A stretch of DNA of 64,000 bases from Eledone cirrhosa (lineage: Eukaryota): positions 9,052,001 to 9,116,000 of the forward strand of contig OZ024748.1 in the NCBI GenBank assembly GCA_964016885.1, given 5' to 3'. The translations under genes were made by a program, and so were the position numbers. How positions within the stretch are numbered: the stretch's first letter is position 1; every line of letters begins with the position of its first letter. Positions 2,711 to 62,239 of this stretch are shown piece after piece. The notes beneath the pieces were generated by a model, which had not been told where the DNA came from, did not search any database, and saw only the letters and a program-made list of their open reading frames with translations.

Positions 2711-2737
2711 ATATATGTATATATATATATATATATA

Positions 2738-4118
2738 TCTTAGTCTTAGATTCTTCCGCGCCGTTTGGCCCATCGAGCAGTAAGTAAGCGGCAACTTTTT
2801 CGAGACCGTGCCAGGTGATGTTGGCTGCCATCAGGTCCTTCCGGAACATTCGTCGCCAGGTGATCCTTGGGCAACCCCGCCTCCGTTTACCGCCAGCCGG
2901 AGTCCAGTTCATCGCTGTTTTCGAATGCCGTTCATTTGGCAGACGCAGAATATGGCGGCCAGCCAGGCGGCACCGACGCTCCGTCACCACTCTCTGTAGC
3001 GTCCACGACTCGGCTCTCCGCAGGATCTCCTCGTTTCGCACTCGGTCGCACCAGGACACACGAAGGATCTTTCGCAGGCACCGCTGGTGGAAAGCATTCA
3101 GCCGTCTCTCTATTTTTGCCGTACTCTTCCAGGTCTCGCTCACATAAAGCACTGTCGGCAGCACTGTGTTCTTGTACAGGCGAAGCTTGATCTTGGTGCT
3201 AATGCGTGAAGACGACCAGGCTGGGCACAGCCGCTGGAAAACCGCAGCTCCTTTGCCGATCCGACAGTTGATGTCGAGCTCCGCGTCGCCGCTGCTTGGC
3301 AGGATGCTGCCCAGATAAGTGAAGTGATCGACTTCCTCGAGGTCCTGCTGGTTGATTCTGATCACTGGACCTGTGTTGCTGGCCCTTCTCATGACGTTGG
3401 TCTTTTTGGTGTTGATTCTCAGGCCGATCTTTTCTGCACTCTCTTGTGCGGATGTTGTTAGGGCCTGCAGATCTGCACTGTTTTCAGCGATCAAAGTGAT
3501 GTTGTCGGCGAATGCCAGGTCCCTCAGCCTCAACTGCCCTCTCCATGGGATTCCTCGACCGGGTCCTTCATCCTTAGTACGAAATCGGCTGCCAGCAGGA
3601 ACAACAGTGGAGAGAGAATGCAACCCTGTCTGACTCCGGAGACAATGTCAAAGAACTCCGTCACGCCGGACTCAGTCTGCACGCAGCAGCTGGAGTTTTC
3701 ATACAGGGCCTTGAAAATGGCGATGAATCTTGCAGGAATGTCGTACAGTTGCGCAATATTTCACAGCGACTCCCGGTGTACACTGTCGAATGCCTTCTGG
3801 AAATCAATAAAATTGACCGCCAAAAGCTGTTGTAGCATTGTTCGAGAATGTTGCGTAGTTTAAAGATCTGTTCCGTGCAAGATCGATTTTTTCGGAGTCG
3901 ACGCAGCAGCACAGTGCAGAACTCTTTGAGCAGCTCAGCAGAGATCTCCTCCAGTTCGCCTGCTTTGCCGTTCCTCAAGTGGCTAATGGCATCTCTCGTC
4001 TCTTGCTTGGTGATATGCCCCTCGCAGATTTTGAGTACCTCAGTGGTTGCTGGAGTCTCTACGGTCAAGTCTATCAGGGTGACCGGATTTGGTAGGTTCA
4101 GCGTCTCCCGGAAGTGCT

Positions 4119-4120
<2 letters not shown>
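2738..4120 (-). mobile_element. RTE-clade LINE, 5'-truncated and decayed (RT region and 3' end)
   Basis: Translations contain SGVRQGC, LAFADNITL (decayed FADD), HFTYLGS, LRLYKNTVLPTVLY, LNAFHQRCLRKIL and WTPAGGKRRRGCPRITW. The 3' end is a short (CTAAGA)2 tail. It has frameshifts and internal deletions, with (TA)n on both sides. Confidence 0.92.
2745..3623 (-). pseudogene. RTE reverse transcriptase C-terminal remnant
   Basis: Part of the 321-aa ORF-track entry. The catalytic DD is changed to DN and the frame is broken upstream. Confidence 0.85.
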
Positions 4121-4162
<42 letters not shown>

Positions 4163-4729
4163 GAGTGACACAACACAAGTATATTACACACCCGACACAA
4201 CACAGGTATATTACACAAACCTGTTAGAAATCGCTATCAAATCTCCCTCAAATCAGCAGATTTCCTCCAGAAAACGAGATATTGAGTGAGAACAGAGAAA
4301 GAGGAAGAATCTACCCGAGTACTAGTCGAAACAACTACCACAAAGCCTTCTATTTAATATTCTAACTCTGCCAATTTGCTGCCTGTTTTTAACGTTATGT
4401 ATAAGATTGACTAGAACGTGCCAAGACCATTCAAAGAATTTAGAACAATCTTCTGCAAGTCGGAATTATATCTCACAACAGAATCCAAACAATCAATACC
4501 TCGTACATAGGTCACTGTCCAGTCATCCGTTGAGCGGTTCAGTGGAACGAAAACTGGGTCTTTTGGTATTTTCTCTTTGAGGTACGAACTTGGTATATTG
4601 TACATAAATATATTTATAGCTATAGAATATTAAAACTATACTACACTGATCTATTGATTTGTCCTAATTAATGGACGGTGGGATAGTCGGTCGAATAGTG
4701 CAAACCCACCCCCTAAGCATAGTCTATTG

Positions 4730-14261: not shown

Positions 14262-14368
14262 GAAGTGCGACAGAAATGAAACATGTATTACATGTTAAAA
14301 TATAGTCTAGATAGATGAGAAACAAAACGAGGATGTAGTTTATGGAACACCCAAATTATTTAATTATT

Positions 14369-14736
14369 TAAGAAAGACATGAACGACACCACAACACTTT
14401 GGTTTGAAAATTTATAAGTATGAATTTTCAACAGATTTTCGTGGCGGACTCAGTGGCCTAGCGGTAGGTATTAGAGACGGTGGAGATCCTGGTCTTGGGT
14501 TCAATCCTGGTCAAGAGGTACACGTAACCTTTTTCAGTTTTTATTTTACAACCAATAGAAATAAACTGAAAAGGTTTATCGAGAACCCTACTCCCGACCA
14601 GGATCGAACTCCCGACCATGACCACCACCGTCTATGACTCCTCCAACTAGGCCACGGAGACAACTACTAAAGTATAATGAAAATTGATAATTATAAACCT
14701 ACTTTCAAAATCAAAGCTAAAATCTGGAGATATGGT
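14369..14736. mobile_element. Fold-back MITE-like element with two convergent tRNA-like units (copy 1)
   Basis: Homologous to 61128-61511. A box tggcctagcgg and B box ggttcaatcc on +, mirrored on the minus strand. The right terminal repeat is lost. Confidence 0.75.
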
Positions 14737-21128: not shown

Positions 21129-21615
21129 CGTGTGTGTGTGTGTGATAAGAAAATGCGAAGTAGTCCTTTATTGATAAGGCTGTGATACATATTTCAATGA
21201 CAACAGTGGTCACGTGATTCTGCCTAACCAGTGCCATGATCTCATCAGACAGCTTCTTACTTAATGAGGTTACATTCTCGAGGCAATCCAAATTAAAACA
21301 AGGGAACGGACAAAGATGATGTTCTTGAACCCGTCAGCCGTTCCCTTGTGAACCCTAATATAAATACACACATTAATGACCACAAATATTTATATCGCCC
21401 CACCCATATATAAATATATATATATATATGGGTGGGGCAATATATATATATATATATAACCACCCACACCCGGATATGTCTCCGCAAACAGTAATTCTCT
21501 TCTCGAATGGGCCATGGTGCCCAAATCCTGAATTGAAAGACTTCGCCAGGTGGTGCTATTAAGTTAGACATGGCCTGGGCCAATACTGGCCAAAACATTT
21601 CAAAGTTATTCAAAG

Positions 21616-22057: not shown

Positions 22058-22330
22058 ATATTAATAAATGGAAACTATATTTATAAAACCATATTTATTT
22101 TATTTTACATATTTCAAGGGCCACCAAGGCCTGTATTTTATCTGATGAAAGTGCACCATAATTTGCCTTGGTGGCCCTTGAAATATGTATAATAAAATAA
22201 ATATGGTTTTATAAATATAGTTTCCATTTATTAATATATCGTGTATTTCCTCCACTAAACTGTTGAGTGCTTTATATCAGTTATAAATATTTTTAAGCTT
22301 GTTGAATCCCAACAAATTAAATATAACCTC

Positions 22331-22334
<4 letters not shown>
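22052..22334 (+). mobile_element. Short fold-back PLE-terminus element (family H1) with hammerhead
   Basis: Arms ~22056-22130 / 22165-22239, tail 22240-22334 (cctccactaaactgttgagtgcttt...), (TA)n on both sides. Confidence 0.85.
22134..22199 (+). ncRNA. Type I hammerhead ribozyme motif
   Basis: tattttat-CTGATGA-aagtgcacca...tggtggccctt-GAAA-tatgta-TA-ataaaata. Perfect 8-bp stem I and near-palindromic stem III. Confidence 0.8.
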
Positions 22335-27842: not shown

Positions 27843-28279
27843 TTTACTTTCATATTTGTTGTATTATTAAATGTGGAGAGAGAAGGAGAGAGAAGGAGAG
27901 AGAGAGAAGGAGAGAGAGAGAAGGAGAGAGAAGGAGAGAGAGAGAAAGAGGGAGAAAGAGAGAGAGAAAGAGAGAGAGAGAAAGAGAGAGAAGGAGAGTG
28001 AAGGAGAGAGGAAGAGATATGTTTTCCTAACGTATATTTTATTTCCTATTTACAACATATATTGCTTTCATAATGTTTTTATTGTTGCTATTGTTATCGT
28101 TTTTATTGTTGTTGATAGCGTTTTTATTGTTATTTGTGTTGTTGCTATTGTTGGTGGTGTTATTGTTGTGAATGTTGCTGTTGCTGTTATGGTTGTTATT
28201 ATAGTCGATATTGTTGTTGCTGCTGCAATTGTTGCTGTTATTGTTGCTATAGCGACGTTACAACTTATTTCTACAACTG

Positions 28280-28390
28280 GAGCAACGTAAAATAAAGTGT
28301 CTTGCTCAAGGACACAAACTATCGCCCACTTCGGAAACCGAACTCACAGCCTCATGATTGCTAAACCAACTCTCTAAACACCAAACCACG
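28280..28390 (-). mobile_element. tRNA-derived SINE fragment, family B (CORE-like)
   Basis: ggagcaacgtaaaataaagtgtcttgctcaaggacac matches 35094-35130. Confidence 0.7.
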
Positions 28391-29118: not shown

Positions 29119-29157
<39 letters not shown>

Positions 29158-29285
29158 AAAGTTTTATTTAAAATTGTTGGGTTACAACGAGTAGATATTT
29201 TATAACTGATATAAAAGCACTCAACAGGTTTTGGAGTAGGTTTACGATATTAAACAAATGGAAACTATATTTATAAAACCATATT

Positions 29286-29351
29286 TATTTCATTATATAT
29301 ATTTCAGGGATATCATATTAAAAATATGGTATGCCTTCCTCAGACAAAATA
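29286..29351 (-). ncRNA. Type I hammerhead ribozyme motif (mirror copy)
   Basis: Reverse complement of 29499-29564. Confidence 0.78.
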
Positions 29352-29498
29352 CAATATATAAACCGTTTTATAAATAAATTTGACATACCTTAAAACAGTG
29401 CAACTTCCATTTAAAAAGTTGATTTGGTAGTTGATTTAAATGGAAGTTGCACTGTTTTAAGGTATGTCAAATTTATTTATAAAACGGTTTATATATTG

Positions 29499-29564
29499 TA
29501 TTTTGTCTGAGGAAGGCATACCATATTTTTAATATGATATCCCTGAAATATATATAATGAAATA
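29499..29564 (+). ncRNA. Type I hammerhead ribozyme motif
   Basis: tattttgt-CTGAGGA-aggcataccatat...atatgatatccct-GAAA-tatata-TA-atgaaata, with palindromic stem III. Confidence 0.78.
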
Positions 29565-29630
29565 AATATGGTTTTATAAATATAGTTTCCATTTGTTTAA
29601 TATCGTATATATATATATATATATATATAT

Positions 29631-29802
29631 ATGCAAAAGTTCTATTTAAATTGTTGGGATACAATAAGCAAATATTTTTATAACTGATATAAAGCACTCA
29701 ACAAGTATTTGGAGTAAACATACGATATTAACTTGGTGTCCTTGAAATATGTATAATGAAATAAATATTGTTTTATAAATATAGTTTCCATTTGTTAATA
29801 TC

Positions 29803-29805
<3 letters not shown>
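29631..29805 (-). mobile_element. Second family H1 insertion in the same TA array
   Basis: Minus-strand tail (~29631-29732) is joined to a plus-strand piece that begins inside hammerhead stem II (ttggtgtccttGAAAtatgtaTAatgaaata) and ends at ttaatatcgta|(TA)n. Confidence 0.82.
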
Positions 29806-29837
<32 letters not shown>

Positions 29838-34981: not shown

Positions 34982-35405
34982 ATATCTGTCAAAAAGGAAC
35001 GATCGACTTTCGTCAAATCGGACCGAGGGAACAATGTTTCCGTTGGTCTTTCCAATTGCTTATACTATCTATCGGTCGCAACTCCAGGTAGAAGGAGCAA
35101 CGTGAAATAAAGTGTCTTGCTCAAGGACATAACGCATCACCTGGTCCAGGAATCGAACTCACAACCTTACGATTGCGTGTGGCTGAGTGGTTAGAGAATT
35201 GGATTCGCAATCGTAAGGTTGTGAGTTCGATTCCTGGACCAGGCGATGCGTTATGTCCTTGAGCAAGACACTTTATTTCACGTTGCTCCTTCTACCTGGA
35301 GTTGCAACCGATAGATAGTATTACCAATTGGAAGGACCAACGGAAACATTGTTCCCTCGGTCCGATTTGACGAAAGTCGATCGTTCCCTAAAAAATATCT
35401 GTCAA
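34982..35405. mobile_element. Head-to-head palindromic SINE dimer (family B) with 11-bp target-site duplication
   Basis: Arms 34996-35177 / 35206-35387. The 28-nt loop holds the A box (tggctgagtgg), and the B box is gagttcgattcc. Direct repeat atatctgtcaa at 34982-34992 and 35395-35405. Confidence 0.88.
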
Positions 35406-35800: not shown

Positions 35801-35872
<72 letters not shown>

Positions 35873-35902
35873 AGATCAAAAGATGGTTAAAGGAGTTCCA
35901 TA

Positions 35903-35973
35903 TATTTTATTATGCGCATTTCAAAAACAAACATCATCAAACAATAATATTTGCGTTTTCATCAGATAAAACA
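35903..35973 (-). ncRNA. Type I hammerhead ribozyme motif (inverted arm of PLE 1)
   Basis: Reverse complement of 39458-39528. Confidence 0.85.
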
Positions 35974-36589
35974 GGAGAACATGATATGAAGGCTAAAAAA
36001 CACTTGTTGATAGTGCAGTTTTAAATCAACATATGAAAAGTGGTTTTAGATTGATGTGTGATATTGGGAAAAATATTTTATTTAGAGAGGGGGGGGAGAA
36101 AAGGATGAAAAGGGAAGGAGATAAGAGGGAGAGATGGGTGATAGAGAGAAAGAGATAGTTTTTATAACTGAGAGGAGATATATTTTATATAGAGGGGTTG
36201 AAAACCGTTGGAAGATACTGTATAAATTAAAAATTTTGAAAATTAACGAAGGGAGGATATGTGCGAGGAAAAAATATTTTATTTAGGGAGGGGGGGGGGG
36301 TTGGAAACGATGAAAGAAAGGGGAGGAGATGAGAGTGAAGGTGGAAAGGGAGAGATGGGTGATAGAGAGAAAGAGATAGTTTTTATAACTGAGAAAAAGA
36401 TATAATGTTTTAATATAGAGAGGTTGGGAACCGTTGGAAGATAATGTATAAATTAAAGGAATTTGAAAATTAACGAAGGGAAATTATGTATGAAGATAGA
36501 GAGAAAAAAATAATAATTGTGGGTGAATATTCTAACGTCAATTTCAAAATTAGCAAAGAGAAAAAAAGGTTTATGTGTAGAAGGATTTG

Positions 36590-36713
36590 AGAATATTTAA
36601 GTGCGAAAGATAGAGCATTATTGAGAAGTGAAGGCGAAATGGAGGAATAGTAGCTGGCAATATCGAATTGAATAAATTTTAGTTTGTTTTTATTATCCAA
36701 TTTGTTGAACCAG
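36590..36713 (-). pseudogene. Inverted fragment of PLE 1 ORF carrying RT motif A
   Basis: The minus strand encodes WFNKLDNKNKLKFIQFDIASYYSSISPSLLNNALSFALKYS, which aligns to WFKNIRCKSSASFLQFDIDNYYSSISPILLNKALIFAKNRS of PLE 2 and continues at LKYS on the + strand. Confidence 0.92.
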
Positions 36714-36722
36714 CTACTATTC

Positions 36723-38276
36723 CTTAAATATTCTGACATCACCACAGATGAACTTCACATCATCCTCACCGCACGTAAAACCATCCTAGAGTTCAACAAC
36801 GAATATTGGACCAGAGCCGATACCTCTAACAACTTCGACATCACAATGGGAGCATCCGATTCATCCCAATTGACTGATTTAATTGGTATCTTCATTTTGA
36901 ACTCTTTGAGTCGGAAAATTCCTCAACTTCGCGGTGGAATTTATTGTGACGATGGACTCTTTACTATCCTAAATTGCAATATAGTTAAACTTAATATTAT
37001 TAAGAACAATATACGTAATCTCTTTAACCAACATAACCTAAAAATTGAATTTGATAATAGTATCAAACTAGCTAATTTCTTGGATGTATCTCTTAATCTT
37101 GACACTGGCCTATATTACCCTTACCATAAAAACAATGAGAATCTTAATTATGTTAACTTTAAATCTAACCATCCTACCAATATCAAGAATGCTATAGTTA
37201 ATAATATTGGAAATAGAATATCTAACATATCTTCTAATAAAAACATCTTTGATGCTAACGCCAATTACTATAATAACGCACTTTCTAAAGCCGGCTATCC
37301 AGATAAAATCAAATATAATAAAGAAACAAATTCTAGGAAAACTTACAGTAGAATATTTAATCATAACCATTCCAATAATTTTAATAAAAGACCTAGATAC
37401 AAAAACATAATCTGGTATAATGCTCCTTTCTCCATCTCTATTAATAACAATATTCCTAAATTATTTTTTAGTGCCTTAAATAAATGCTTCCCTCCCTCAC
37501 ATATCTATAGTAAAATATTTAACAAACACACCATCAAATTTTCGTATTCTACATCCTCCAATATTTCCAACATCATCTCTAAACACAACAACAAAATATT
37601 AAATACTAAATCTCTTCCTTCCAATATTGAATTTCATAATAACAGTAATAGTACTCCTGACGTCATTGTAAACCCTAGGCTAACTTCTGTAAACCCAAAT
37701 GCAACGTCAAACACAACTTCGCTAAATGTTCATAATCCAACTCTAAATCAAGAAACTATTATTCCTATTATTCCTATCGCAAACAACTTCTCCAATCCAA
37801 TTCCTTCTATAGATAACACTAGATCACTCATTAATAATCTCTCTAATTGCAACTGCCGCATTAAAAATAAATGTCCTCTCAACAACCATTGCCTCGATAA
37901 AAACTTAATTTATGAATGTAAAATTATAACTAGCACCAATTCCTTCACCTATTTTGGCTCCACTTCCACCTCTTTTAAAGCTCGTCTCTATAATCATCAT
38001 TCATCTTTCAAATACAAACTTAAAAGAACTAACACTGCTCTCTCAGAACTCATATGGTCCTTAAAAGACAAAAACATTAAATATAACATCTTTTGGAAAA
38101 AGATTTCTTCTGCATCCTCATACTTGAACAGCTCTCTATCTAAAATCTGTAATCTCTGCCTAAATGAAAAATTTACCATTATCTCTAACCTAGAATCCAT
38201 AATAAATAGACGCTCAGATTTGTTTTCTATCTGCCTGCATAAATTCCAGAGAACTTTTCACAAAGTATACAGTTAA
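36723..38276 (+). CDS. PLE reverse transcriptase (partial) - GIY-YIG endonuclease; open frame, N-terminus lost
   Basis: ITMGASDSSQLTDLIG, GGIYCDD, NFLDVSL, PYHK...SNHP, CNCRIKNKCPLNNHC, NLIYECK...TYFGSTSTSFKARL, CNLCLNEK. The TTG start at 36684 is a junction artefact. Confidence 0.9.
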   Translation, partial: LKYSDITTDELHIILTARKTILEFNNEYWTRADTSNNFDITMGASDSSQLTDLIGIFILNSLSRKIPQLRGGIYCDDGLFTILNCNIVKLNIIKNNIRNLFNQHNLKIEFDNSIKLANFLDVSLNLDTGLYYPYHKNNENLNYVNFKSNHPTNIKNAIVNNIGNRISNISSNKNIFDANANYYNNALSKAGYPDKIKYNKETNSRKTYSRIFNHNHSNNFNKRPRYKNIIWYNAPFSISINNNIPKLFFSALNKCFPPSHIYSKIFNKHTIKFSYSTSSNISNIISKHNNKILNTKSLPSNIEFHNNSNSTPDVIVNPRLTSVNPNATSNTTSLNVHNPTLNQETIIPIIPIANNFSNPIPSIDNTRSLINNLSNCNCRIKNKCPLNNHCLDKNLIYECKIITSTNSFTYFGSTSTSFKARLYNHHSSFKYKLKRTNTALSELIWSLKDKNIKYNIFWKKISSASSYLNSSLSKICNLCLNEKFTIISNLESIINRRSDLFSICLHKFQRTFHKVYS

Positions 38277-38332
38277 TATTCAATTCTTTATCAATTTAGA
38301 ATCTTTTCTCAAAGGCACATATACATACACCT

Positions 38333-38768
38333 CTTTAAAATATACCCATCTACCTTACTTTAAAGGGCATTATACACTCTATAATACTCGTTTACTCATT
38401 ACCCTCATTCTATCTTCTCGTAAAACAATAACATTTGTTTTTGACACTTTGAATATTCATCCGCAATCATTATTATTTTTTTTTCTCTCTATCATAAATC
38501 TTTTTAATCTCAATTTCATCCTTAATTTATTATTATATTTTTTTTTAATATATACTCATATATTCTTTAAAATATACCCATCTACCTTACTTTAAAGGGC
38601 ATTATACACTCTATAATACTCGTTTACTCATTACCCTCATTCTATCTTCTCGTAAAACAATAACATTTGTTTTTGACATTTTGAGTATTCATCCGCAATC
38701 ATTATTATTTTCTCTCTATCATAAATCTTTTTAATCTCAATTTCATCCTTAATTTATTATTATTTTTT
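38333..38768. repeat. ~233-bp tandem duplication in PLE 1 3' UTR
   Basis: ctttaaaatatacccatctaccttactttaaagggcattatacactc... at ~38333 and ~38565, nearly identical. Confidence 0.92.
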
Positions 38769-38949
38769 TCTCCCTATCAACGAACTCATTATTAATACAT
38801 ATGAATTCAATATACAAACTTTAACTTCACATTATTTTTCTCAAATCCTTCTACACATAAACCTTTTTTTCTCTTTGCTAATTTTGAAATTGACGTTAGA
38901 ATATTCACCCACAATTATTATTTTTTTCTCTCTATCTTCATACATAATT

Positions 38950-39362
38950 TCCCTTCGTTAATTTTCAAATTCCTTTAATTTATACATTATCTTCCAACGG
39001 TTCCCAACCTCTCTATATTAAAACATTATATCTTTTTCTCAGTTATAAAAACTATCTCTTTCTCTCTATCACCCATCTCTCCCTTTCCACCTTCACTCTC
39101 ATCTCCTCCCCTTTCTTTCATCGTTTCCAACCCCCCCCTCCCTAAATAAAATATTTTTTCCTCGCACATATCCTCCCTTCGTTAATTTTCAAAATTTTTA
39201 ATTTATACAGTATCTTCCAACGGTTTTCAACCCCTCTATATAAAATATATCTCCTCTCAGTTATAAAAACTATCTCTTTCTCTCTATCACCCATCTCTCC
39301 CTCTCATCTCCTTCCCTTTTCATCCTTTTCTCCCCCCCCCCCTCTCTAAATAAAATATTTTT
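38950..39362. repeat. Diverged ~225-bp tandem duplication inside the PLE 1 arm
   Basis: cccttcgttaattttcaaa...tcttccaacggtt...ctcagttataaaaactatctctttctctctatcacccatctctccc occurs twice and is mirrored at ~36070-36480. Confidence 0.85.
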
Positions 39363-39457
39363 CCCAATATCACACATCAATCTAAAACCACTTTTCATAT
39401 GTTGATTTAAAACTGCACTATCAACAAGTGTTTTTTAGCCTTCATATCATGTTCTCC

Positions 39458-39528
39458 TGTTTTATCTGATGAAAACGCAAATATTATTGTTTGATGATGT
39501 TTGTTTTTGAAATGCGCATAATAAAATA
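39458..39528 (+). ncRNA. Type I hammerhead ribozyme motif (PLE 1 pseudo-LTR)
   Basis: tgttttat-CTGATGA-[aaacgcaaatattatt gttt gatgatgtttgttttt]-GAAA-tgcgca-TA-ataaaata. Full core and palindromic stem III. Predicted cleavage after 39520. Confidence 0.87.
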
Positions 39529-39649
39529 TATGGAACTCCTTTAACCATCTTTTGATCTTATATTATGCATACTCCAGTCCCACAAACTGTAGAGTGCTTC
39601 TTATCCGATATCTGCATTGCTTTATTGTACTACAATAAAACTCACCTCC

Positions 39650-39718
<69 letters not shown>

Positions 39719-40529: not shown

Positions 40530-40820
40530 TGAAATCATGAGGTTGTGAGTTCGATTCTCAGACCGGTTGATGTACCGTGTCCTTGAGCAAGACACTTTAT
40601 TTCATGTTGCCCCAGTTTACTCAGCTGTAGAAATGAGTTGTGATGACACTGGTGTCAAGCTGTATCGGTCATTGCCTTTCCCCTGGACAACATCTGTGTT
40701 GTGGAGAGGAGAGACTGGTATACATGGAACACTGCTGGTCTTCCACAAACAAACTTGCCCCCCGGAATTGTGCCAGGTTCAAATCACAAGGTCATTCGTG
40801 ACCGAAGGGAATCTTTACAC
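40530..40820 (+). mobile_element. tRNA-derived SINE, family B (CORE-like)
   Basis: gaggttgtgagttcgattctc...gtgtccttgagcaagacactttatttcatgttgc, homologous to 35215-35290. Confidence 0.75.
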
Positions 40821-41460: not shown

Positions 41461-41592
41461 TAACGAAGGAAATGTGGAACCAGGTGGACCATAACGCACC
41501 AAAGTACTCAATACTTAGGGTAGTAGAGTCCAGAACTAGCCGTCGAAACGGCTTGAGCTCAGCCGTCGGGGTTTTACCCACTCTACTACCCT

Positions 41593-41593
<1 letters not shown>
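41461..41593 (-). mobile_element. Short inverted PLE-terminus element, family H2
   Basis: Minus-strand tail 41461-41529 is joined to plus-strand ccagaactagccgtcGAAAcggcttgagctcagccgTCgggg. 14-bp IR at 41516-41529 / 41580-41593. TA-rich flanks. Homologous to 61979-62170. Confidence 0.78.
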
Positions 41594-41651
<58 letters not shown>

Positions 41652-42030
41652 TATAGATATATATAGATATATAGATAGATATATAGATAGAGATATATAG
41701 ATATATATATATATAGATATATATATAGAGAGATATATATATATATATATATAGATATATATATATATAGATATATATATATATATATATATATAGATAC
41801 ATATATAGATATATATATATATATATATATATAGATATATATGTAGATAAATCTACCAAGAGTTTACGGTAGTGTCCAATCCGTATGAAGAACTCAATGT
41901 ATTCCGGATATCATGGAAAGAAGAGATGTAATGAAAATCCACTTTCGGTGAAAGATAAACGGTATACAGAGTCAAGATAAAATATTAAACAAATAATGAA
42001 CAAACAATTCCTTATATTAAACAAAAAAAG

Positions 42031-42185
42031 TTCACTATTTAACGATCGTTTCTAGGGCATATATGTGTTATAATTGGTATGCATATTTAACAGATCTATG
42101 TACAAAATTATACAAAATTATACAAATTATCAAGATTAAATATACATACCTAACTCATATATACGCCGTCTTCAGAAATAATGAA
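42031..42185 (-). ncRNA. Hammerhead ribozyme motif (inverted arm of PLE 2)
   Basis: Reverse complement of 49435-49589. Confidence 0.72.
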
Positions 42186-42954
42186 GTATATTTATTGATA
42201 ATAACAACAATTCAAAATGTCAGTTCAAAATTGACCAATGAAAACACAAAGGGTAAAAAGCAGTTTGGTGTGTGTATATACATGCAAAAACCTTACACAT
42301 ATTTTACAATAATGTGTGTATATAATTTGTATGTGTATACTAAAAAGATGGATGTAAACACAAAATTTCAAGGTTAATATCTCTGTAAGCTTAATGCGCT
42401 GATAAGATACGCAAAGATACTTATGGAGTCAAGCATATAAATATATTTTTTTCATACTCACACATATCAGTATAATCACACATACATGTGCGTATATGCA
42501 TAAATATACACATAACCACGAACATACAAACACACACACTCCCCCACTCACATTTATATATGTGGATATAAAATCATAAGCAAATAGAAATTAAGTCACT
42601 CACATAAAAACACTGGTACACACATTTCAAGATCAAGATACAGAAATTAGGTGGGAGGGGGGGGGAGGGGTCAGTATTAGATTGTCAGACCAGACAGCCT
42701 AAAATAAATGTATCTATAAATTAAGAAAAATAAAAAAATAATAAAAATAAAAACAATAAAATATAATAAATGTACATACACATACAGATATACATACACA
42801 TACATACATGTACGCGCACATAGAGATATCTACACATACATACATACACACATACCTATACTGTCATACACACACATACATTTACACGAACATACACATA
42901 CACATATAAAAAGATATAAATACACACACACTCACACGCAACACATACACACAT

Positions 42955-42995
<41 letters not shown>

Positions 42996-43111
42996 TATAC
43001 ACACACACATAGACTCATATATATATATATATATACACATATACATATATATATACAAACATATATATCCCCACACTCATACCACCATAAATATACATAC
43101 AAACACCCACA

Positions 43112-43142
<31 letters not shown>

Positions 43143-43361
43143 CCACATACACACACGTACACATATATATATATATATATACACATATATACACATACAC
43201 ATATATATATACACACACATAAAAAACAGACATGCACATATATACACACACATATATATATATATTTCATTACCCTTATATATACACATAGTATATATAC
43301 ATACACAACCTCACTTATACACATATACACATAAGTTATATTACAATAATAATAAAGAATA

Positions 43362-43392
<31 letters not shown>

Positions 43393-43529
43393 TACACACA
43401 TATACATATATACATATACATATATATATACACACACATACATACACATACATACATACACCTAAACATATACATACATAAAAACACACATACGAATAAA
43501 GACATATATTCACACATAGATACCCATAT

Positions 43530-43569
<40 letters not shown>

Positions 43570-44321
43570 ACATATATACACATACATACACACATATATA
43601 TACACACATATATACACATACACACACACACACACACACAGACACACATACACACTCACATATACATATATATATATATATGTGTATGTGAGTGTGCGCA
43701 AATACATATATATATACACACACACACATACAAACACACACAAACACATACATATGCATATATGCACACACACACACATATATCACATAGATATGAAGAT
43801 AAACATATAAATAGAGAGACATACGAATATATACAGAACCCATATACACATACATACAACCACGCATATACATATATATACATATATACACATATATATA
43901 TTCCTATATACAAGCATACACATACACACACATATATACATATACATACACATATACATACCACACATTCACATACACATACATATATAATACATATATA
44001 TACATATATATACATACACATGTATGTACAATCATATATACACACTCAATCTTACATTCATATTTACATGCTCATATATGTATTTTTATATTTAGAAATA
44101 AATACCAAAACCTATATAGACACCCACCTACACATATATTCATACATATACTCTTACAAAAACAGATGATAATAGTATGGGGGAAAGGGGGGGTTTGGAG
44201 AAGGGGATCAAAGTAAATATATGTTTCAAGAAACATATAATATTTTCCGTATCTTAATTCAATGTATGTTCTTACATATTTTCAGTGCTAGGAAATACGA
44301 AATCTATGCATCCCAAAATAA

Positions 44322-46256
44322 ATTTGTGCATTGAAATGTCCACACTTCAACCTGAAAGATCACAAATCTAACTTTAACTCTAATCCTTCTATTAGACTTA
44401 TATGTCCCTCCAAATCAGATATTGGAATAATTAGCAAAAAAATTTTAGATAGAGTCATCCCACAAATAAGAAAATACGTTATTTTACCACTCTGGGAAAA
44501 CACCTCCCAGGTAATTAATTGGTTTAAAAATATTAGGTGTAAATCTTCTGCTTCTTTCCTACAATTTGATATAGATAATTACTATTCTTCTATATCACCC
44601 ATACTCCTGAACAAAGCATTAATATTTGCTAAAAATAGATCTAATTTAACTTCGGATGACATTAACATTATTACACATGCTAGACAAACACTTATTGAAT
44701 TTCAGAATGAATACTGGACCAGAAATACTTACAGTAATCTTTTTGATATTACTATGGGTTCAAGCGATTCCGCCCAAATTACTGATCTTGTGGGCCTCTT
44801 TCTCCTTTTCAACATAAATGCCTCTTTTCCCCACCTCAAAGGTGGTTTATATCGTGATGACTGTCTTCTTCTTTCTAACAACCTTAGCCTTTCAGAAATC
44901 GAAAAAAACAAAAAGCATATTAGAACTTTCCTTAAAGACTATTATAATCTTAATATTACTTTTGAAAAAACAAGTAAAGTAGTAAATTTCCTAGATATAA
45001 CTTTAGATTTAGCTACGGGTATATACCAACCTTACCATAAACCTAACCAAAACTTACATTACATACACTCACAATCTAATCACCCTAAATCTATCCTTAA
45101 AAACCTTGCATATAATATATCACTTAGAATTTCTAACCTTTCTTCTAACCAAGATGTATTTGATAAAAATGCGACCTTTTATAATGAAGCTCTAGATAGA
45201 AGTGGCCACAAAAATAGATTAGAGTATATACCTTCTACTAAAAATACTGAAAGCATACAGCATAATATTACCAACAAACACCAAATGAAAAGTACACACC
45301 TAAATGCCACCCACAGTATACCCCAAAATACTAAATCTTCTAATATAAAGTATAGTAACCCTCAAAAAACTACTCATCATACGACTATAATAAATATTAA
45401 TAATAAAACTCCTAATAAAAAAGATAAAACACCTAAATCTACAAATATAACTAAAAATAGTTGTGGTGAGATCATTAACATTAATCCTCCTAGTAAAAAT
45501 CATGATACAACATATAAAAATAATAAAAATAATAAACAACATAGAAACCGTAATAGACGAGTTACTTGGTATAATGCTCCTTTTAATTTACAAGTTAAGG
45601 ATAATATTGCTAAAAAATTTTTTTATATCCTTGAGAAAAACTTCCCGCCAAACCACAAATACCATCAAATCTTAAATAGGTCTACAGTTAAATTCTCATA
45701 CTCTACAACAAATAACATAAAACAAAATATAAGTGCATATAATGCATATAAATGTAAGAAAACCATAAGTATACCACCAGTACATCAAATTAACAATAAT
45801 ATCTCCTCAAATACAGAATTAACGAAAGGATGTAACTGTAGAAACAAAACAAACTGCCCATTAAAAGGGAATTGTCTTGTTAACAACATAGTCTATAAAT
45901 GTAATGTTAAAACTAAAGATTCTATTTGCTCATATATAGGAGCTACCTCTAACAATTTTAAGACAAGGTATAATACCCACAAACATAGCTTTAAAAATGC
46001 CGCACTGGCTAATACAACATCTCTAGCAGAAAAAATCAATAGTTATAAAAATAAAAATATAAAATATGATTTGACCTGGAGTGTGCTCAAAAGAGCCACC
46101 CCTTATCAAAATAATAGAAAGGAATGTAGATTATGTTCCCAAGAACTATTTGAAATAATGAAGTCTAGGGATATCTTATTAAATAAAAGACAGGAATTAA
46201 TTATATCGTGTAATCATAAACTAAAAAAAACATTTAAATATTATAAACCTAATTAA
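44322..46256 (+). CDS. PLE reverse transcriptase - GIY-YIG endonuclease; uninterrupted but lacking N-terminus and ATG
   Basis: LKDHK..RLICPSKS, QFDIDNYYSSI, ITMGSSDSAQITDLVG, GGLYRDD, VNFLDITL, PYHKPN..SNHP, CNCRNKTNCPLKGNC, NIVYKC...SYIGATSNNFKTRY, CRLCSQE, LLNKRQEL. The frame opens exactly at the inversion junction (TAA at 44319-44321). Confidence 0.93.
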   Translation: MCALKCPHFNLKDHKSNFNSNPSIRLICPSKSDIGIISKKILDRVIPQIRKYVILPLWENTSQVINWFKNIRCKSSASFLQFDIDNYYSSISPILLNKALIFAKNRSNLTSDDINIITHARQTLIEFQNEYWTRNTYSNLFDITMGSSDSAQITDLVGLFLLFNINASFPHLKGGLYRDDCLLLSNNLSLSEIEKNKKHIRTFLKDYYNLNITFEKTSKVVNFLDITLDLATGIYQPYHKPNQNLHYIHSQSNHPKSILKNLAYNISLRISNLSSNQDVFDKNATFYNEALDRSGHKNRLEYIPSTKNTESIQHNITNKHQMKSTHLNATHSIPQNTKSSNIKYSNPQKTTHHTTIININNKTPNKKDKTPKSTNITKNSCGEIININPPSKNHDTTYKNNKNNKQHRNRNRRVTWYNAPFNLQVKDNIAKKFFYILEKNFPPNHKYHQILNRSTVKFSYSTTNNIKQNISAYNAYKCKKTISIPPVHQINNNISSNTELTKGCNCRNKTNCPLKGNCLVNNIVYKCNVKTKDSICSYIGATSNNFKTRYNTHKHSFKNAALANTTSLAEKINSYKNKNIKYDLTWSVLKRATPYQNNRKECRLCSQELFEIMKSRDILLNKRQELIISCNHKLKKTFKYYKPN

Positions 46257-46710
46257 TAACATTATTCTAGAATTTAATTTAATTTAAATGTTAATTAACC
46301 TATAAATTTAATTTAATTAATATTTTATTACAGATGAGAAAATATTATGTAATCATAAATTTTGAAAAACCTTTAAATATTACTAATATATACTCAGTAA
46401 TTTAATTTATAGATTAATTTTAATTTATTTTAACCTTTTACTATAATTTTTTTTTATTATAATTCTTTTACAGATAAAATATAACAAAATAATATCATGT
46501 ATCCTATGACGGAGAAAGAATTTTTAGTATTATAGACCTAATTAATATACATTTTGGAAATATATTTATTATTTGGTTTTAGTTTTAATCAACCTAAAAC
46601 TTTAATTTTAATTTGCTTAAAATTAGTATCCTTGTACAGACGAATTGCAGAATGTCATGTAATCATAGAATGGGATGTGTTTTGGATATATACCTAGTTA
46701 ATATATTCTG
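46190..46710 (+). repeat. Four degenerate ~140-160 bp tandem copies of the ORF terminus
   Basis: acag...tgtaatcata...tatta...acctaattaata motif recurs at ~46207, ~46346, ~46496 and ~46655. Confidence 0.65.
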
Positions 46711-48050
46711 TGCAATTTTTTGAAAAAGATATGTATATCTATATGTATATGTATATGTGTGTATTGTATGTGTATCTATATGTATATTTATGTGACTATA
46801 TATGTATGTATGTGTATATATATGTATATATATATATATATGTGTGTGTATATGTATATATATGTATATGTGTATGTATATGTATATGTATGCGTATTAA
46901 TTTTGATTTTTATTTGCATATAATTATATTATGCTATTGATGAAATACAATATCTGCTTTATGTATTGTATACCTAATTAACATATACTAATTAACGTAT
47001 ACTATTGAAATAAATATATAATTTTTAATTTAGTTAACATATAATTTATATGCTACTACCGATGTAATACTTTATTTTATTTTTATTTGGGTTTCTTTTC
47101 CCTATTACTAAATTCATCTCCTAATATTGATACCATAACGTTATTAACTTTAATTTAGTTATAATGTAATTAATAATCTACTACTGTTTGACTTCATAAT
47201 TTTGCTTCAAATATTATAAACCTAACTAATTTACACCTTGGAAATCAATATGTTGGCTATCTTTGATTTAGTTAACATATGATTAATGGTATACTTTTTT
47301 ATTTTGGGATGCATAGATTTCGTATTTCCTAGCACTGAAAATATGTAAGAACATACATTGAATTAAGATACGGAAAATATTATATGTTTCTTGAAACATA
47401 TATTTACTTTGATCCCCTTCTCCAAACCCCCCCTTTCCCCCATACTATTATCATCTGTTTTTGTAAGAGTATATGTATGAATATATGTGTAGGTGGGTGT
47501 CTATATAGGTTTTGGTATTTATTTCTAAATATAAAAATACATATATGAGCATGTAAATATGAATGTAAGATTGAGTGTGTATATATGATTGTACATACAT
47601 GTGTATGTATATATATGTATATATATGTATTATATATGTATGTGTATGTGAATGTGTGGTATGTATATGTGTATGTATATGTATATATGTGTGTGTATGT
47701 GTATGCTTGTATATAGGAATATATATATGTGTATATATGTATATATATGTATATGCGTGGTTGTATGTATGTGTATATGGGTTCTGTATATATTCGTATG
47801 TCTCTCTATTTATATGTTTATCTTCATATCTATGTGATATATGTGTGTGTGTGTGCATATATGCATATGTATGTGTTTGTGTGTGTTTGTATGTGTGTGT
47901 GTGTATATATATATGTATTTGCGCACACTCACATACACATATATATATATATATGTATATGTGAGTGTGTATGTGTGTCTGTGTGTGTGTGTGTGTGTGT
48001 ATGTGTATATATGTGTGTATATATATGTGTGTATGTATGTGTATATATGT

Positions 48051-48090
<40 letters not shown>

Positions 48091-48227
48091 ATATGGGTAT
48101 CTATGTGTGAATATATGTCTTTATTCGTATGTGTGTTTTTATGTATGTATATGTTTAGGTGTATGTATGTATGTGTATGTATGTGTGTGTATATATATAT
48201 GTATATGTATATATGTATATGTGTGTA

Positions 48228-48258
<31 letters not shown>

Positions 48259-48477
48259 TATTCTTTATTATTATTGTAATATAACTTATGTGTATATGTG
48301 TATAAGTGAGGTTGTGTATGTATATATACTATGTGTATATATAAGGGTAATGAAATATATATATATATGTGTGTGTATATATGTGCATGTCTGTTTTTTA
48401 TGTGTGTGTATATATATATGTGTATGTGTATATATGTGTATATATATATATATATATGTGTACGTGTGTGTATGTGG

Positions 48478-48508
<31 letters not shown>

Positions 48509-48624
48509 TGTGGGTGTTTGTATGTATATTTATGGTGGTATGAGTGTGGGGATATATATGTTTGTATATATATATGTATATGTGTATATATATATATATA
48601 TATGAGTCTATGTGTGTGTGTATA

Positions 48625-48665
<41 letters not shown>

Positions 48666-49434
48666 ATGTGTGTATGTGTTGCGTGTGAGTGTGTGTGTAT
48701 TTATATCTTTTTATATGTGTATGTGTATGTTCGTGTAAATGTATGTGTGTGTATGACAGTATAGGTATGTGTGTATGTATGTATGTGTAGATATCTCTAT
48801 GTGCGCGTACATGTATGTATGTGTATGTATATCTGTATGTGTATGTACATTTATTATATTTTATTGTTTTTATTTTTATTATTTTTTTATTTTTCTTAAT
48901 TTATAGATACATTTATTTTAGGCTGTCTGGTCTGACAATCTAATACTGACCCCTCCCCCCCCCTCCCACCTAATTTCTGTATCTTGATCTTGAAATGTGT
49001 GTACCAGTGTTTTTATGTGAGTGACTTAATTTCTATTTGCTTATGATTTTATATCCACATATATAAATGTGAGTGGGGGAGTGTGTGTGTTTGTATGTTC
49101 GTGGTTATGTGTATATTTATGCATATACGCACATGTATGTGTGATTATACTGATATGTGTGAGTATGAAAAAAATATATTTATATGCTTGACTCCATAAG
49201 TATCTTTGCGTATCTTATCAGCGCATTAAGCTTACAGAGATATTAACCTTGAAATTTTGTGTTTACATCCATCTTTTTAGTATACACATACAAATTATAT
49301 ACACACATTATTGTAAAATATGTGTAAGGTTTTTGCATGTATATACACACACCAAACTGCTTTTTACCCTTTGTGTTTTCATTGGTCAATTTTGAACTGA
49401 CATTTTGAATTGTTGTTATTATCAATAAATATAC

Positions 49435-49589
49435 TTCATTATTTCTGAAGACGGCGTATATATGAGTTAGGTATGTATATTTAATCTTGATAATTTGTAT
49501 AATTTTGTATAATTTTGTACATAGATCTGTTAAATATGCATACCAATTATAACACATATATGCCCTAGAAACGATCGTTAAATAGTGAA
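49435..49589 (+). ncRNA. Type I hammerhead ribozyme motif with extended stem II (PLE 2 pseudo-LTR)
   Basis: ttcattattt-CTGAAGA-[~116 nt hairpin: ggcgtatat/atatatgcc, ggtatgtatatttaa/ttaaatatgcatacc]-GAAA-cgatcg-TT-aaatagtgaa. 10-bp stem I and palindromic stem III. The base of stem II is imperfect. Confidence 0.75.
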
Positions 49590-49857
49590 CTTTTTTTGTT
49601 TAATATAAGGAATTGTTTGTTCATTATTTGTTTAATATTTTATATAGATATATATATAGATATATATATATATAGATATAGATATATATAGATATATATA
49701 TATATAGATAGATATATATATATAGATATATAGATAGATATATATATATATAGATAGATATATATATATATATAGATATATATATATATATATAGATAGA
49801 TATATATATATAGATATAGATATATATAGATATAGATATAGATATATATATATATAT

Positions 49858-60928: not shown

Positions 60929-61127
60929 TTGAAACCGTCTTACATCTCTGTTCAATCAACGAATTATGTAGAATCATTCTCACAAGGGTGAAGAATTCAT
61001 TGAATTGAGTGAGTGTGAAAGACCAAAGGTCATTATTGAAATTCTCTGGGTTTCGCAAAATACATAATATCTTATTGGAGAAGGTAAGATATTTTTAGAA
61101 GTCGACCTTAAGTAGGAGCGATAACAT

Positions 61128-61511
61128 TAAGAAAGACATGAACGACAACGTATGATTTTGTTTTGAAAATTTTGAAAGTAGGTTTATAAAGATGAATTTT
61201 CATAACATTTTCGGAGTTGTCTCCGTGGCCTAGTGGTAGGTATTAGAGACGGTGGAGTTGGGTTCAATCCTGGTCGAGAGGTACATGTAATCTTTTTCAG
61301 TTTTTTTATTTTACAACCAATAGAAAATAAATACTGAAATGGTTTACCAGGAACCCTACTGCCGACCAGATCGAACTTCAGACCAGGATCACCACCGTCT
61401 ATGATTCCTCCAACTAGGCCGTCGAGACTCTCACAAAAGCATAATGAAAATTAATAATTATAAACCTACTTTCAAAGTTTAAAAGATGTGGTGACGTTCA
61501 TGGCTTTCCTA
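61128..61511. mobile_element. Fold-back MITE-like element with two convergent tRNA-like units (copy 2, both termini)
   Basis: Left end taagaaagacatgaacgacaac; right end reverse complement taggaaagccatgaacgtcacc. Internal IR tttgaaagtaggtttataa / ttataaacctactttcaaa. A and B boxes on both strands. Confidence 0.8.
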
Positions 61512-61915
61512 GAGCTATTAGTCATATTTATGGTAGACTTGTCAATCTTCTGGTTCTTTGGTAATAACCTATTATTCCTGTGTCTTTAACTGTTGTTAAA
61601 TACAGATTTTTCATTGGAGAAGTTAAGATATTTTTCCGCAAAAATTTGATTGCAGTTTTATTTCCAATTATGTATTTTTCAAAATGATATTTATTCATTA
61701 TAAAGATTAAATGATAACATTCTATATGTAGGTGGGCCACCTTCACCTGGCAGCCAATAATTTTAGACCCAGTCTGCAACTGTATATATATATAAAGAGA
61801 GGGAGAGAGAGAGAGAGAGGGAGAGAGATTCTATTTATCTCTATACCCACTCACCATCTCCCCATGTATTGAGTACTCCTATGACTAGTGGTATCCTGAG
61901 TCTCAGCATCACAGA

Positions 61916-61978
<63 letters not shown>

Positions 61979-61982
<4 letters not shown>

Positions 61983-62168
61983 AACGAGTAGGACCCCGAC
62001 GGCTGAGCTCAAGCCGTTTCGACGGCTAATTAGTCCAGAATTAGCCGTCGAAACGGCTTGAGCTCAGCCGTCGGGGCCCTACTCGTTCCTATTACCCACT
62101 CTACTACCCTAAGTATTGAGTACTTTGGTGCGTTATGGTCCACCTGGTTCCTTACCATATTTCCTTCG

Positions 62169-62170
<2 letters not shown>
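61979..62170 (+). mobile_element. Family H2 fold-back PLE-terminus element with hammerhead 3' half
   Basis: Arms 61979-62031 / 62039-62091 with a 7-nt loop. GAAA-cggct-tgagctc-agccg-TC-gggg. Tail contains gtattgagtacttt. (TA)n on both sides. Confidence 0.82.

Positions 62171-62239
<69 letters not shown>

What the first reader, a model, noticed from the sequence alone, without database searches (positions are those of the whole stretch)
39458..39528. Four unrelated hammerhead variants all have self-complementary stem III
Seen: the segment between GAAA and UH is tgcgca (PLE 1), cgatcg (PLE 2), tatata/tatgta (H1) and cggcttgagctcagccg (H2). The sequences differ but all are palindromic or nearly so. 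Established: minimal PLE hammerheads with palindromic stem III cleave as dimers. Inference: RNA dimerisation could bring two templates into one RNP, which would explain paired opposite-orientation cDNAs.
Basis: partly seen in the sequence, partly recalled or inferred. Interest (0 to 1): 0.72.

Follow-up and report, generated by a model that had tools for sequence, protein, structure and literature searches.

The report
Palindromic hammerheads of Penelope-like retrotransposons
These are predicted self-cutting RNA motifs at the ends of Penelope-like jumping genes, with a self-pairing stem that is already described in print; copies across the genome show that the mirror-image insertions also form in a family without that palindrome, and they likely come from one RNA copied from both cut DNA ends rather than from two RNAs held together.

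Summary
The four helix-III segments are in the window and are self-complementary beyond chance. They are not unrelated: all belong to Hydra-type Penelope-like elements (PLEs). H2 lacks its 5' core in the window and folds as a monomer. Palindromic helix III and dimer cleavage in PLE hammerheads are published (PMC4209133).

The new inference, that a palindrome-joined RNA dimer supplies two templates, is not supported:
- A PLE family with a non-palindromic helix III makes head-to-head insertions too (28 pairs per first 100 hits, against 35 for PLE 1).
- In PLE 1, 45 of 47 insertions pair one long-end and one short-end arm.
- The arms share template class (2 mixed, 23 expected) and haplotype.
- Six long arms stop at the short site; 0 of 94 start at the ribozyme cut.

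Best reading: one RNA is primed twice at two fixed sites. The palindrome likely serves a cis double hammerhead that cuts tandem RNA into units or circles: 30 of 37 second-lap arms run past the likely transcription start, none stops there. The scan noted two-sided priming before, on other DNA of this genome. No cleavage or RNA data exist here.

The parts
39458..39528 (+). PLE 1 type I hammerhead motif; helix-III segment TGCGCA 39513-39518; predicted cut after 39520
35903..35973 (-). Identical hammerhead in the inverted arm of PLE 1
36723..39652 (+). PLE 1 long-end (L) arm: 5'-truncated Hydra-type RT-EN ORF (frame 36672-38276), 3' UTR, hammerhead, tail ending at +132 from the cut
35865..36593 (-). 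PLE 1 short-end (S) arm, ending about +40 to +46 from the cut, in (TA)n
36584..36714 (-). Inverted piece of upstream ORF whose start abuts the 5' end of the L arm (non-overlapping inversion)
39397..39397 (+). Likely capped transcription start (-123 from the cut): hotspot of arm 5' ends, often preceded by a non-genomic G
39558..39652 (+). One-sided tail between the S and L priming sites
49435..49589 (+). PLE 2 hammerhead motif with long helix II; CGATCG at 49572-49577
42031..42185 (-). PLE 2 hammerhead in the inverted arm
44322..49648 (+). PLE 2 S arm with Hydra-type ORF (44322-46256) and long 3' UTR
41845..44322 (-). PLE 2 inverted arm: 2351 nt fully complementary to 47298-49648, plus a likely tail 41845-41971 (tail not checked against other copies)
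29154..29607 (.). H1 two-armed insertion: L arm (-) with motif 29286-29351, S arm (+) with motif 29499-29564, segment TATATA
29633..29806 (.). Second H1 insertion: tail-only L arm (-) that stops at the S site, and S arm (+) holding only the 3' half of the motif (TATGTA)
22062..22334 (.). H1 insertion: S arm (-) cut inside helix II, L arm (+) with motif 22134-22199, segment TATGTA
41462..41594 (.). H2 insertion: tail-only L arm (-) and S arm (+) with GAAA 41545-41548 and segment 41549-41565; no 5' core
61980..62172 (.). H2 insertion: S arm (-) and L arm (+), both starting inside helix II; segment 62054-62070; no 5' core
21179..21253 (-).

Best explanation
The motifs are type I hammerheads in the terminal repeats of Hydra-type Penelope-like retrotransposons, and their palindromic helix III likely lets two copies on one tandem RNA fold together and cut it, while the mirror-image arms likely arise separately, from one RNA primed twice. 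Step 1 (shown): each insertion lies in (TA)n as two arms joined 5' to 5', one ending at a proximal site S (about +40 from the cut) and one at a distal site L (+132). Step 2 (inferred): the RT-EN protein, probably as a dimer, cuts both DNA strands, and each free end primes on the same RNA, one at S and one at L; the L-primed enzyme follows, displacing the first cDNA or stalling at S. Step 3 (inferred): short insertions come from uncut, capped linear RNA copied to its start at -123. Long ones come from RNA without that 5' end, most simply a unit-length circle made by double-hammerhead cleavage of a tandem transcript and ligation. Step 4 (from literature, not tested here): the unstable helix III keeps single motifs inactive, so multimers are cut and monomers, circles and short RNAs are spared as templates.
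For: L+S in 45 of 47 typed two-armed PLE 1 insertions (63 insertions held the first 100 motif hits; p 1.6e-11). Also 10 of 11 GAAC pairs, 20 of 21 H2 pairs (query selected L arms) and 7 of 7 window insertions read by eye. Template class agrees between arms: 25 both short, 20 both long, 2 mixed against 23 expected; 0 of 21 insertions with a -123 arm have a long partner. Arms share segregating alleles: the +9 allele (32 of 88 arms) differs between arms in 1 of 41 pairs; arm differences are 0.66% per site within insertions and 1.9% between. Six L arms start at +15 to +60. The S arm reaches further 5' in 21 pairs, L in 8, with 16 ties (p 0.024). 4 of 20 long pairs end within 45 nt of each other (p 0.004). 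A non-genomic G precedes 16 of 35 run-off arms at -123 (p 0.006). 0 of 94 arms start within 5 nt of the cut. Of 50 arms that reach the ORF start, 13 stop between S and L of the upstream copy, 0 at the cut, 7 between cut and start, 0 at the start, 30 beyond. L428: both arms are laps of one 204-nt unit beginning 3-4 nt after the predicted cut. PMC11167929 (main text read): a PLE protein cuts and extends both strands, starts at two internal RNA sites, is predicted to be a dimer and uses uncut RNA.
Against: No RNA-level or biochemical data; no RNA holder was listed. Displacement of the first cDNA by the second enzyme is assumed. Allele agreement would also follow from two RNAs of one source locus or from conversion after insertion. 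In H2, 7 of 19 pairs read by eye differ at one C/T site. I attribute this to a query that carried the rarer C (1 of 42 arms) but did not prove it. 8 of 45 pairs have the L arm longer than the S arm, and there is 1 LL and 1 SS pair. Tandem multi-unit copies exist (L425-L427), so read-through linear RNA can replace the circle. L428 is a single case and its junction is 3-4 nt off the cut. PMC11167929 found no strand difference in RT start site and no reads ending at the cut. Arm ends come from BLAST edges, curated by hand, and are blurred by microhomology.
Confidence: 0.62

Rival explanations
1. One reading: two RNAs pair through palindromic helix III, and this RNA dimer supplies one template to each DNA end.
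For: Palindromes recur across families: 10 of 11 six-nucleotide segments in the survey are fully self-complementary. Whole-motif dimers are predicted to be strong for PLE 1, PLE 2 and H2 (-11.5 to -15.3 kcal/mol). H2 keeps GAGCTC across subfamilies while the flanking loop bases vary, although its monomer helix is stable. The non-palindromic family shows fewer pairs (28 against 35 per 100 hits).
Against: GAAC/GGAC family: helix-III duplex +2.4 and -1.7 kcal/mol, 23,834 motif hits, still two-armed. H1 dimers are predicted to be very weak (-4.9, -5.3) yet H1 is two-armed. A symmetric dimer does not predict 45 of 47 L+S, nor the absence of mixed template classes and haplotypes. An active dimer would cut S and L off the body, but 0 of 94 arms start at the cut. 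In H2, three insertions carry the same palindrome-breaking base in both arms (L219, L225, L236), and only 2 of 100 listed loop variants are compensated. Naiads lack canonical hammerheads but have inverted copies.
Confidence: 0.07
2. Two RNAs from the same source locus are held by an asymmetric protein dimer (or pair during transcription), one primed at S and one at L; stalls at S reflect bound protein.
For: It explains haplotype agreement and needs no strand displacement. A protein dimer is predicted for PAc. It allows the 8 pairs with the longer L arm and the LL and SS pairs.
Against: It does not readily give class agreement (2 mixed against 23), co-terminal deep ends (4 of 20), abutting non-overlapping inversions (window 36584-36714; L353) or the private junction shared by both arms in L428.
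Confidence: 0.19
3. Self-priming or fold-back: one cDNA is made and copied back on itself, perhaps from an antisense template (PMC3846280, passages read).
For: 16 of 45 pairs have 5' ends within 20 nt; junctions overlap by short palindromes; arms are near-identical. L319 shows a true fold-back piece.
Against: Fold-back needs the L arm to contain the S arm. The S arm is longer in 21 of 45 pairs, and six L arms hold only the tail, which an S-primed cDNA cannot supply. The cap-like G at -123 points to a sense template.
Confidence: 0.07
4. The palindromes are inherited passengers with no current role in these families; long templates are linear read-through transcripts and nothing is cut.
For: No arm starts at the cut. 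The youngest H2 subfamily has a mismatched core. Catalytic mutants did not affect PAc insertion in vitro.
Against: Different palindromes in many families imply selection. The L428 unit begins next to the predicted cut. No second-lap arm stops at the transcription start.
Confidence: 0.05

Closest known systems
Minimal type I hammerheads of metazoan PLEs (Cervera and de la Pena 2014, PMC4209133; abstract, results, discussion read)
   Same: Motif in the terminal repeat, long helix II, 1-2 bp helix III with palindromic loop, U3-A8 core variant, paired motifs on opposite strands 100-700 bp apart, proposed dimer cleavage and circular template.
   Different: PLE 2 has a 125-nt helix II. H2 has a stable 5-bp helix III with a 9-nt loop holding a palindromic hexamer. 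The paper has no analysis of arm pairs.
Hydra clade of C-terminal EN+ PLEs (Craig et al. 2021, PMC8557442; section 11 and passages read, metadata supplement searched)
   Same: RW motif, DKT, CxCx5C linker, CxxC and CxH around the conserved E and N, no CCHH, (TA)n target, hammerheads, inverted 5'-truncated copy, one-sided tail.
   Different: Unit 3.67 kb (described as generally under 3 kb); tail about 90 nt rather than 30-40.
PAc Poseidon element in vitro (Frangieh et al. 2024, PMC11167929; main text read)
   Same: Two internal RT start sites bounding the tail, both strands cut and extended, uncut RNA as template.
   Different: There the sites lie inside the ORF and no strand asymmetry was seen. 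Here they precede the ORF and nearly every insertion uses one of each.
L1 twin priming (recalled; named only in search listings)
   Same: Second DNA end primes on the same RNA, giving an inverted segment; tail-only arms and abutting inversions fit.
   Different: Here the second site is fixed, arms usually overlap in template, and two-sided priming is the rule rather than a minority product.
Animal non-LTR retrozymes (PMC7229834 passages; bioRxiv 10.64898/2026.07.22.740005 abstract, introduction, part of methods)
   Same: Type I hammerheads with palindromic helix III acting as dimers in tandem RNA, giving circles closed by a ligase.
   Different: Non-coding 170-400 nt tandem repeats; the four window families have coding partners.
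Palindrome-driven RNA dimers of retroviruses and Ty1 (HIV-1 kissing-loop layout recalled; Ty1 papers seen as search listing and abstract starts)
   Same: H2's stem with a 2+6+1 loop resembles a kissing loop.
   Different: No compensated subfamily was found, palindrome-broken templates still gave both arms, and the other families have no such stem.

Membership tests
Type I hammerhead ribozyme | Core CUGANGA ... GAAA ... UH | tested here: met
   PLE 1, PLE 2, H1 and the fifth family
Type I hammerhead ribozyme | Core present in the window's H2 copies | tested here: not met
   5' half absent; genomic copies U3-A8 or C3/A8 mismatch
Type I hammerhead ribozyme | Helix I closing the ends and helix II | tested here: met
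   5-10 bp helix I; folds; base of PLE 2 helix II imperfect
Type I hammerhead ribozyme | Rfam hammerhead model at gathering score | tested here: inconclusive
   0 matches in the window; minimal variants may escape the models
Type I hammerhead ribozyme | Self-cleavage after UH | not testable with these tools
   Only indirect: L428 unit starts 3-4 nt after the site
PLE minimal (dimeric) hammerhead | Short palindromic helix III, unstable as monomer | tested here: met
   PLE 1, PLE 2, H1: hairpin +2.4 to +4.7, duplex -2.2 to -10.5 kcal/mol
PLE minimal (dimeric) hammerhead | Short unstable helix III in H2 | tested here: not met
   Monomer hairpin -4.8 kcal/mol
PLE minimal (dimeric) hammerhead | Located in the terminal repeat of a PLE | tested here: met
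   Downstream of RT-EN ORFs for all four families
PLE minimal (dimeric) hammerhead | Cleaves only as a dimer | not testable with these tools
   Needs a bench assay
Hydra-clade PLE | Single ORF, RT then C-terminal GIY-YIG endonuclease | tested here: met
   821-aa open frame in L425-L427, L429, L430
Hydra-clade PLE | RWK-type motif and DKT | tested here: met
   RWT and RWR, DKT in PLE 1 and H1 partners; region missing from the PLE 2 and H2 copies read
Hydra-clade PLE | CxCx5C linker; CxxC and CxH; no CCHH | tested here: met
   Read from alignment A1; decayed in the H2 copy
Hydra-clade PLE | Insertion into (TA)n | tested here: met
Hydra-clade PLE | Tree placement with published Hydra sequences | not tested
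   Reference sequences were not obtained
L1-type twin priming | Inverted segments do not overlap on the template | tested here: not met
   Most arms overlap; only tail-only arms, window 36584-36714 and L353 abut
L1-type twin priming | One RNA molecule templates both cDNAs | tested here: inconclusive
   Class and allele agreement favour it; same-locus RNA pairs not excluded
Kissing-loop dimer initiation signal | Stable stem with self-complementary loop hexamer | tested here: met
   H2 only
Kissing-loop dimer initiation signal | Palindrome kept by compensating changes and needed for propagation | tested here: not met
   2 of 100 listed variants compensated; broken loop in both arms of three insertions

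The most novel reading that the evidence does not exclude
Penelope-like elements replicate through unit-length RNA circles cut out of tandem transcripts by a cis double hammerhead. One RNA, circle or capped linear, is primed from both ends of a break in (TA)n at two fixed sites, which yields the inverted arms, the one-sided tail and the tandem copies in one mechanism.
Probability: 0.42. Interest if true: 0.75.

Novelty: new member of a known kind. Interest (0 to 1): 0.44.

Why it matters
The palindromes themselves are ordinary for this class. The value lies in what thousands of young copies say about an open question: PMC8557442 names the formation of tandem and inverted PLE structures as unexplained, and PMC11167929 leaves the later steps unvalidated. 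The data separate two things that the finding joined. Two-armed insertion does not need the palindrome, and the arm statistics point to one template. They also give genomic support for the circular template proposed in 2014, and they name exact sites (start -123, cut, S, L) for a direct test with marked RNAs.

Tried and rejected
Rfam scan: no match. Pfam on 12 window ORFs: no hit for the PLE proteins. The repeat finder was swamped by microsatellites. CGATCG at 35000 and 35378 belongs to a fold-back without a hammerhead core and was rejected as the PLE 2 motif. An in-genome Naiad control failed: one Pfam accession was not in the library, the five GIY-YIG hits with long frames that I read were C-terminal, Neptune-like, and a tblastn over my loci showed nothing I could call Naiad. 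The Naiad point therefore rests on PMC8557442. A compensated H2 loop subfamily was not found. One search had a wrong cut offset and was redone. One search used a private variant and gave 1 hit. No RNA holder listed; no reads were laid, since contigs cannot show ends. Lunse, Weinberg and Breaker (RNA Biol) is not held; I saw only its title and its citation in PMC6765202. The Hydra hammerhead supplement of PMC8557442 was not among the held files, so it may already show such palindromes. Dropped from the family survey as false positives or unclear: a TTGAAAA satellite, a second TTGAAAA cluster, one TTGACAA cluster with an unpaired closing base, and weak single hits. Dropped from arm counts: 16 of 63 insertions that were one-armed or unresolved. 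The second-lap test used 50 of 226 hits; several come in pairs from one insertion, three ends at -1063 are alignment breaks of a subfamily that continues, and one (L442) is misplaced by about 20 nt within its class. Searches that found no paper on twin priming in PLEs or on a two-template PLE RNA dimer: (open-access library only).

Full report
Observation. The window lies in a 3.0-Gb animal genome. A descriptor that leaves the segment between GAAA and UH free finds 9 type I hammerhead motifs in the window, against 0.03 per shuffle. H2 is only a 3' half in all window copies; full genomic copies have U3-A8 or mismatched C3/A8 cores. Rfam has no match.

What they belong to. PLE 1 and PLE 2 carry RT-EN frames in the window. 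H1 and H2 lie downstream of related frames elsewhere (L439, L437). All show the Hydra marks listed in PMC8557442 section 11 as far as the copies reach. The four are thus families of one clade, 43-53% identical to the PLE 1 protein.

Is the palindrome more than chance? Yes. In 600 kb of evenly spaced samples and 1.74 Mb of all loci, 10 of 11 families with a 6-nt segment are fully self-complementary, in several different sequences; the chance per family is 0.15. The families are related, so they are not 11 independent trials. It is not universal: CCACTGG, CAATG and CCGTCGG have a central mismatch, and GAAC/GGAC, CCTCTGG, CCTTTGG and CAACAACAAGTTG have non-complementary loops. For PLE 1, PLE 2 and H1 the monomer helix III is unfavourable and the self-duplex favourable; H2 folds alone.

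Prior art. PMC4209133 reports the palindromic helix III of PLE hammerheads, dimer-dependent low cleavage, paired motifs on opposite strands and a proposed circular template. PMC6765202 repeats this and ties the dimer to tandem copies on one RNA. So the observation and the 'established' step are known.

Testing the inference: the control family. A PLE of another clade (Cx4CxxC linker, L431) has GAAC in 37 and GGAC in 9 of 50 copies seen. Its 3' motif has 23,834 hits; among the first 100 there are 28 head-to-head pairs, against 35 for PLE 1 (8,115 hits). Ten of its 11 pairs read have one long and one short end. Its helix-III duplex is +2.4 or -1.7 kcal/mol, but the whole motif is still predicted to dimerise at -6.7, more than H1. 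The control therefore removes the palindrome, not every dimer. PMC8557442 adds that Naiads lack canonical hammerheads yet often carry the inverted copy.

Testing the inference: arm anatomy. The first 100 PLE 1 hits on contig C1 fall in 63 insertions; 47 have two typed arms. Of these, 45 join an arm ending at L (+132) to one ending at S (about +40). Thirty of 94 arms start at -123 (window 39397), the A of a TCA, and 16 of 35 run-off arms there are preceded by a G that the element lacks, which fits a reverse-transcribed cap (recalled signature). Both arms are of one class: 25 pairs stay within -150, 20 both pass it, 2 are mixed where 23 are expected. A trans dimer should mix classes, and a cis dimer of the 5' and 3' repeats should make mixed pairs the rule. 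The arms share haplotypes: the +9 allele differs in 1 of 41 pairs. Six L arms contain little more than the tail and stop at S, and the S arm is the longer in 21 pairs against 8. This fits a second enzyme following on the same RNA and rules out simple fold-back as the general route. No arm starts at the cut. The window's own seven two-armed insertions are all L+S by eye, two with tail-only L arms.

Against this reading. Seven of 19 H2 pairs differ at one site. The query carried the rarer base, found in 1 of 42 arms of a sample not selected for it, so selection is my explanation, unproven. Twelve of 12 two-armed H2 insertions match in subfamily by eye. Two RNAs of one source locus, or conversion after insertion, could also give matching arms.

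What the palindrome likely does. Of 50 arms that reach the ORF start (of 226 hits), 37 run through the upstream hammerhead; none stops at the cut or at -123, and 30 go beyond -150. Thirteen stop between S and L, four of them sharply at +34 to +39. A linear transcript from -123 should stop there, so long templates are circles or read-through multimers. L428 is an L+S insertion whose arms are about 2.4 and 1.9 laps of a 204-nt unit running from +4/+5 to about +207, with a private junction and two private bases throughout; the unit lacks the ribozyme. This single case suggests cleavage near the predicted site, circle formation, and both arms from one ribozyme-free template. The palindrome then likely acts earlier, in a double hammerhead on tandem RNA, as shown for amphibian retrozymes (PMC7229834 passages).

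Mechanism and rivals. One RNA primed twice, with a cis double hammerhead making units or circles: 0.62. Two same-locus RNAs held by protein: 0.19. Palindrome-held two templates: 0.07. Fold-back (PMC3846280): 0.07. Idle palindromes: 0.05. PMC11167929 supplies the biochemical parallels: two internal start sites, both strands extended, predicted protein dimer, uncut RNA as substrate.

Novelty. The motif feature is known and these are new members. I found no paper proposing fixed-site twin priming for PLEs or a two-template RNA dimer (open-access library only; one key paper and one supplement unseen). Earlier notes of this scan describe two-sided priming on other DNA of this genome. They are unchecked AI notes, seen after my reading was set (note), and are not counted as support. 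The tests of the palindrome itself, of template class, haplotype, cap G and second lap were done here.

Noticed in passing
L428 (G000:C2:216010501-216014000): Two-armed PLE 1 insertion made of laps of a 204-nt unit that starts 3-4 nt after the predicted ribozyme cut and lacks the ribozyme; a candidate mini-circle template.
   Followed up: partly
window 39397; PLE 1 copies: Sharp 5' end hotspot with an extra G in 16 of 35 run-off arms, a likely capped transcription start inside the terminal repeat.
   Followed up: yes
L034, L036-L038, L054, L055: The young H2 subfamily (99% identical copies) has a C3/A8 mismatched core yet is abundant; most H2 arms start inside the helix II loop.
   Followed up: partly
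window 41549-41565 and H2 relatives: H2 helix III is a stable stem with a 2+6+1 loop; GAGCTC is kept while flanking loop bases vary between subfamilies, like a kissing loop. No compensated subfamily was seen.
   Followed up: partly
   Followed up: partly
window 36584-36714 (-); L353: Inverted upstream pieces that abut the 5' end of the other arm without overlap, as in L1 twin priming.
   Followed up: partly
L431 (G000:C1:2083001-2091000): Very abundant PLE of another clade (Neptune- or Nematis-like linker, about 4.15-kb spacing, Asn-rich upstream frame) with a GAAC/GGAC hammerhead; 23,834 motif hits.
   Followed up: partly
window 41972-44322 and 47298-49648: PLE 2 arms are 2351 nt and fully complementary, so the insertion is very young; the 3' UTR exceeds 3 kb and is rich in simple repeats.
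   Followed up: no
window 34996-35387; related 28260-28389, 40533-40641: Fold-back element without a hammerhead core, also holding CGATCG; arms 92% alike.
   Followed up: no
window 14368-14724 and 61099-61540: Two copies (about 80% alike) of another fold-back repeat.
   Followed up: no
window 2658-4233 (-): Broken non-LTR retrotransposon with an RVT_1 match, next to the decayed H1 motif at 2513.
   Followed up: no
L425-L427, L429, L430: Tandem and double full-length PLE 1 copies with intact 821-aa frames; L430 has both arms ending at -557 of a second lap.
   Followed up: partly
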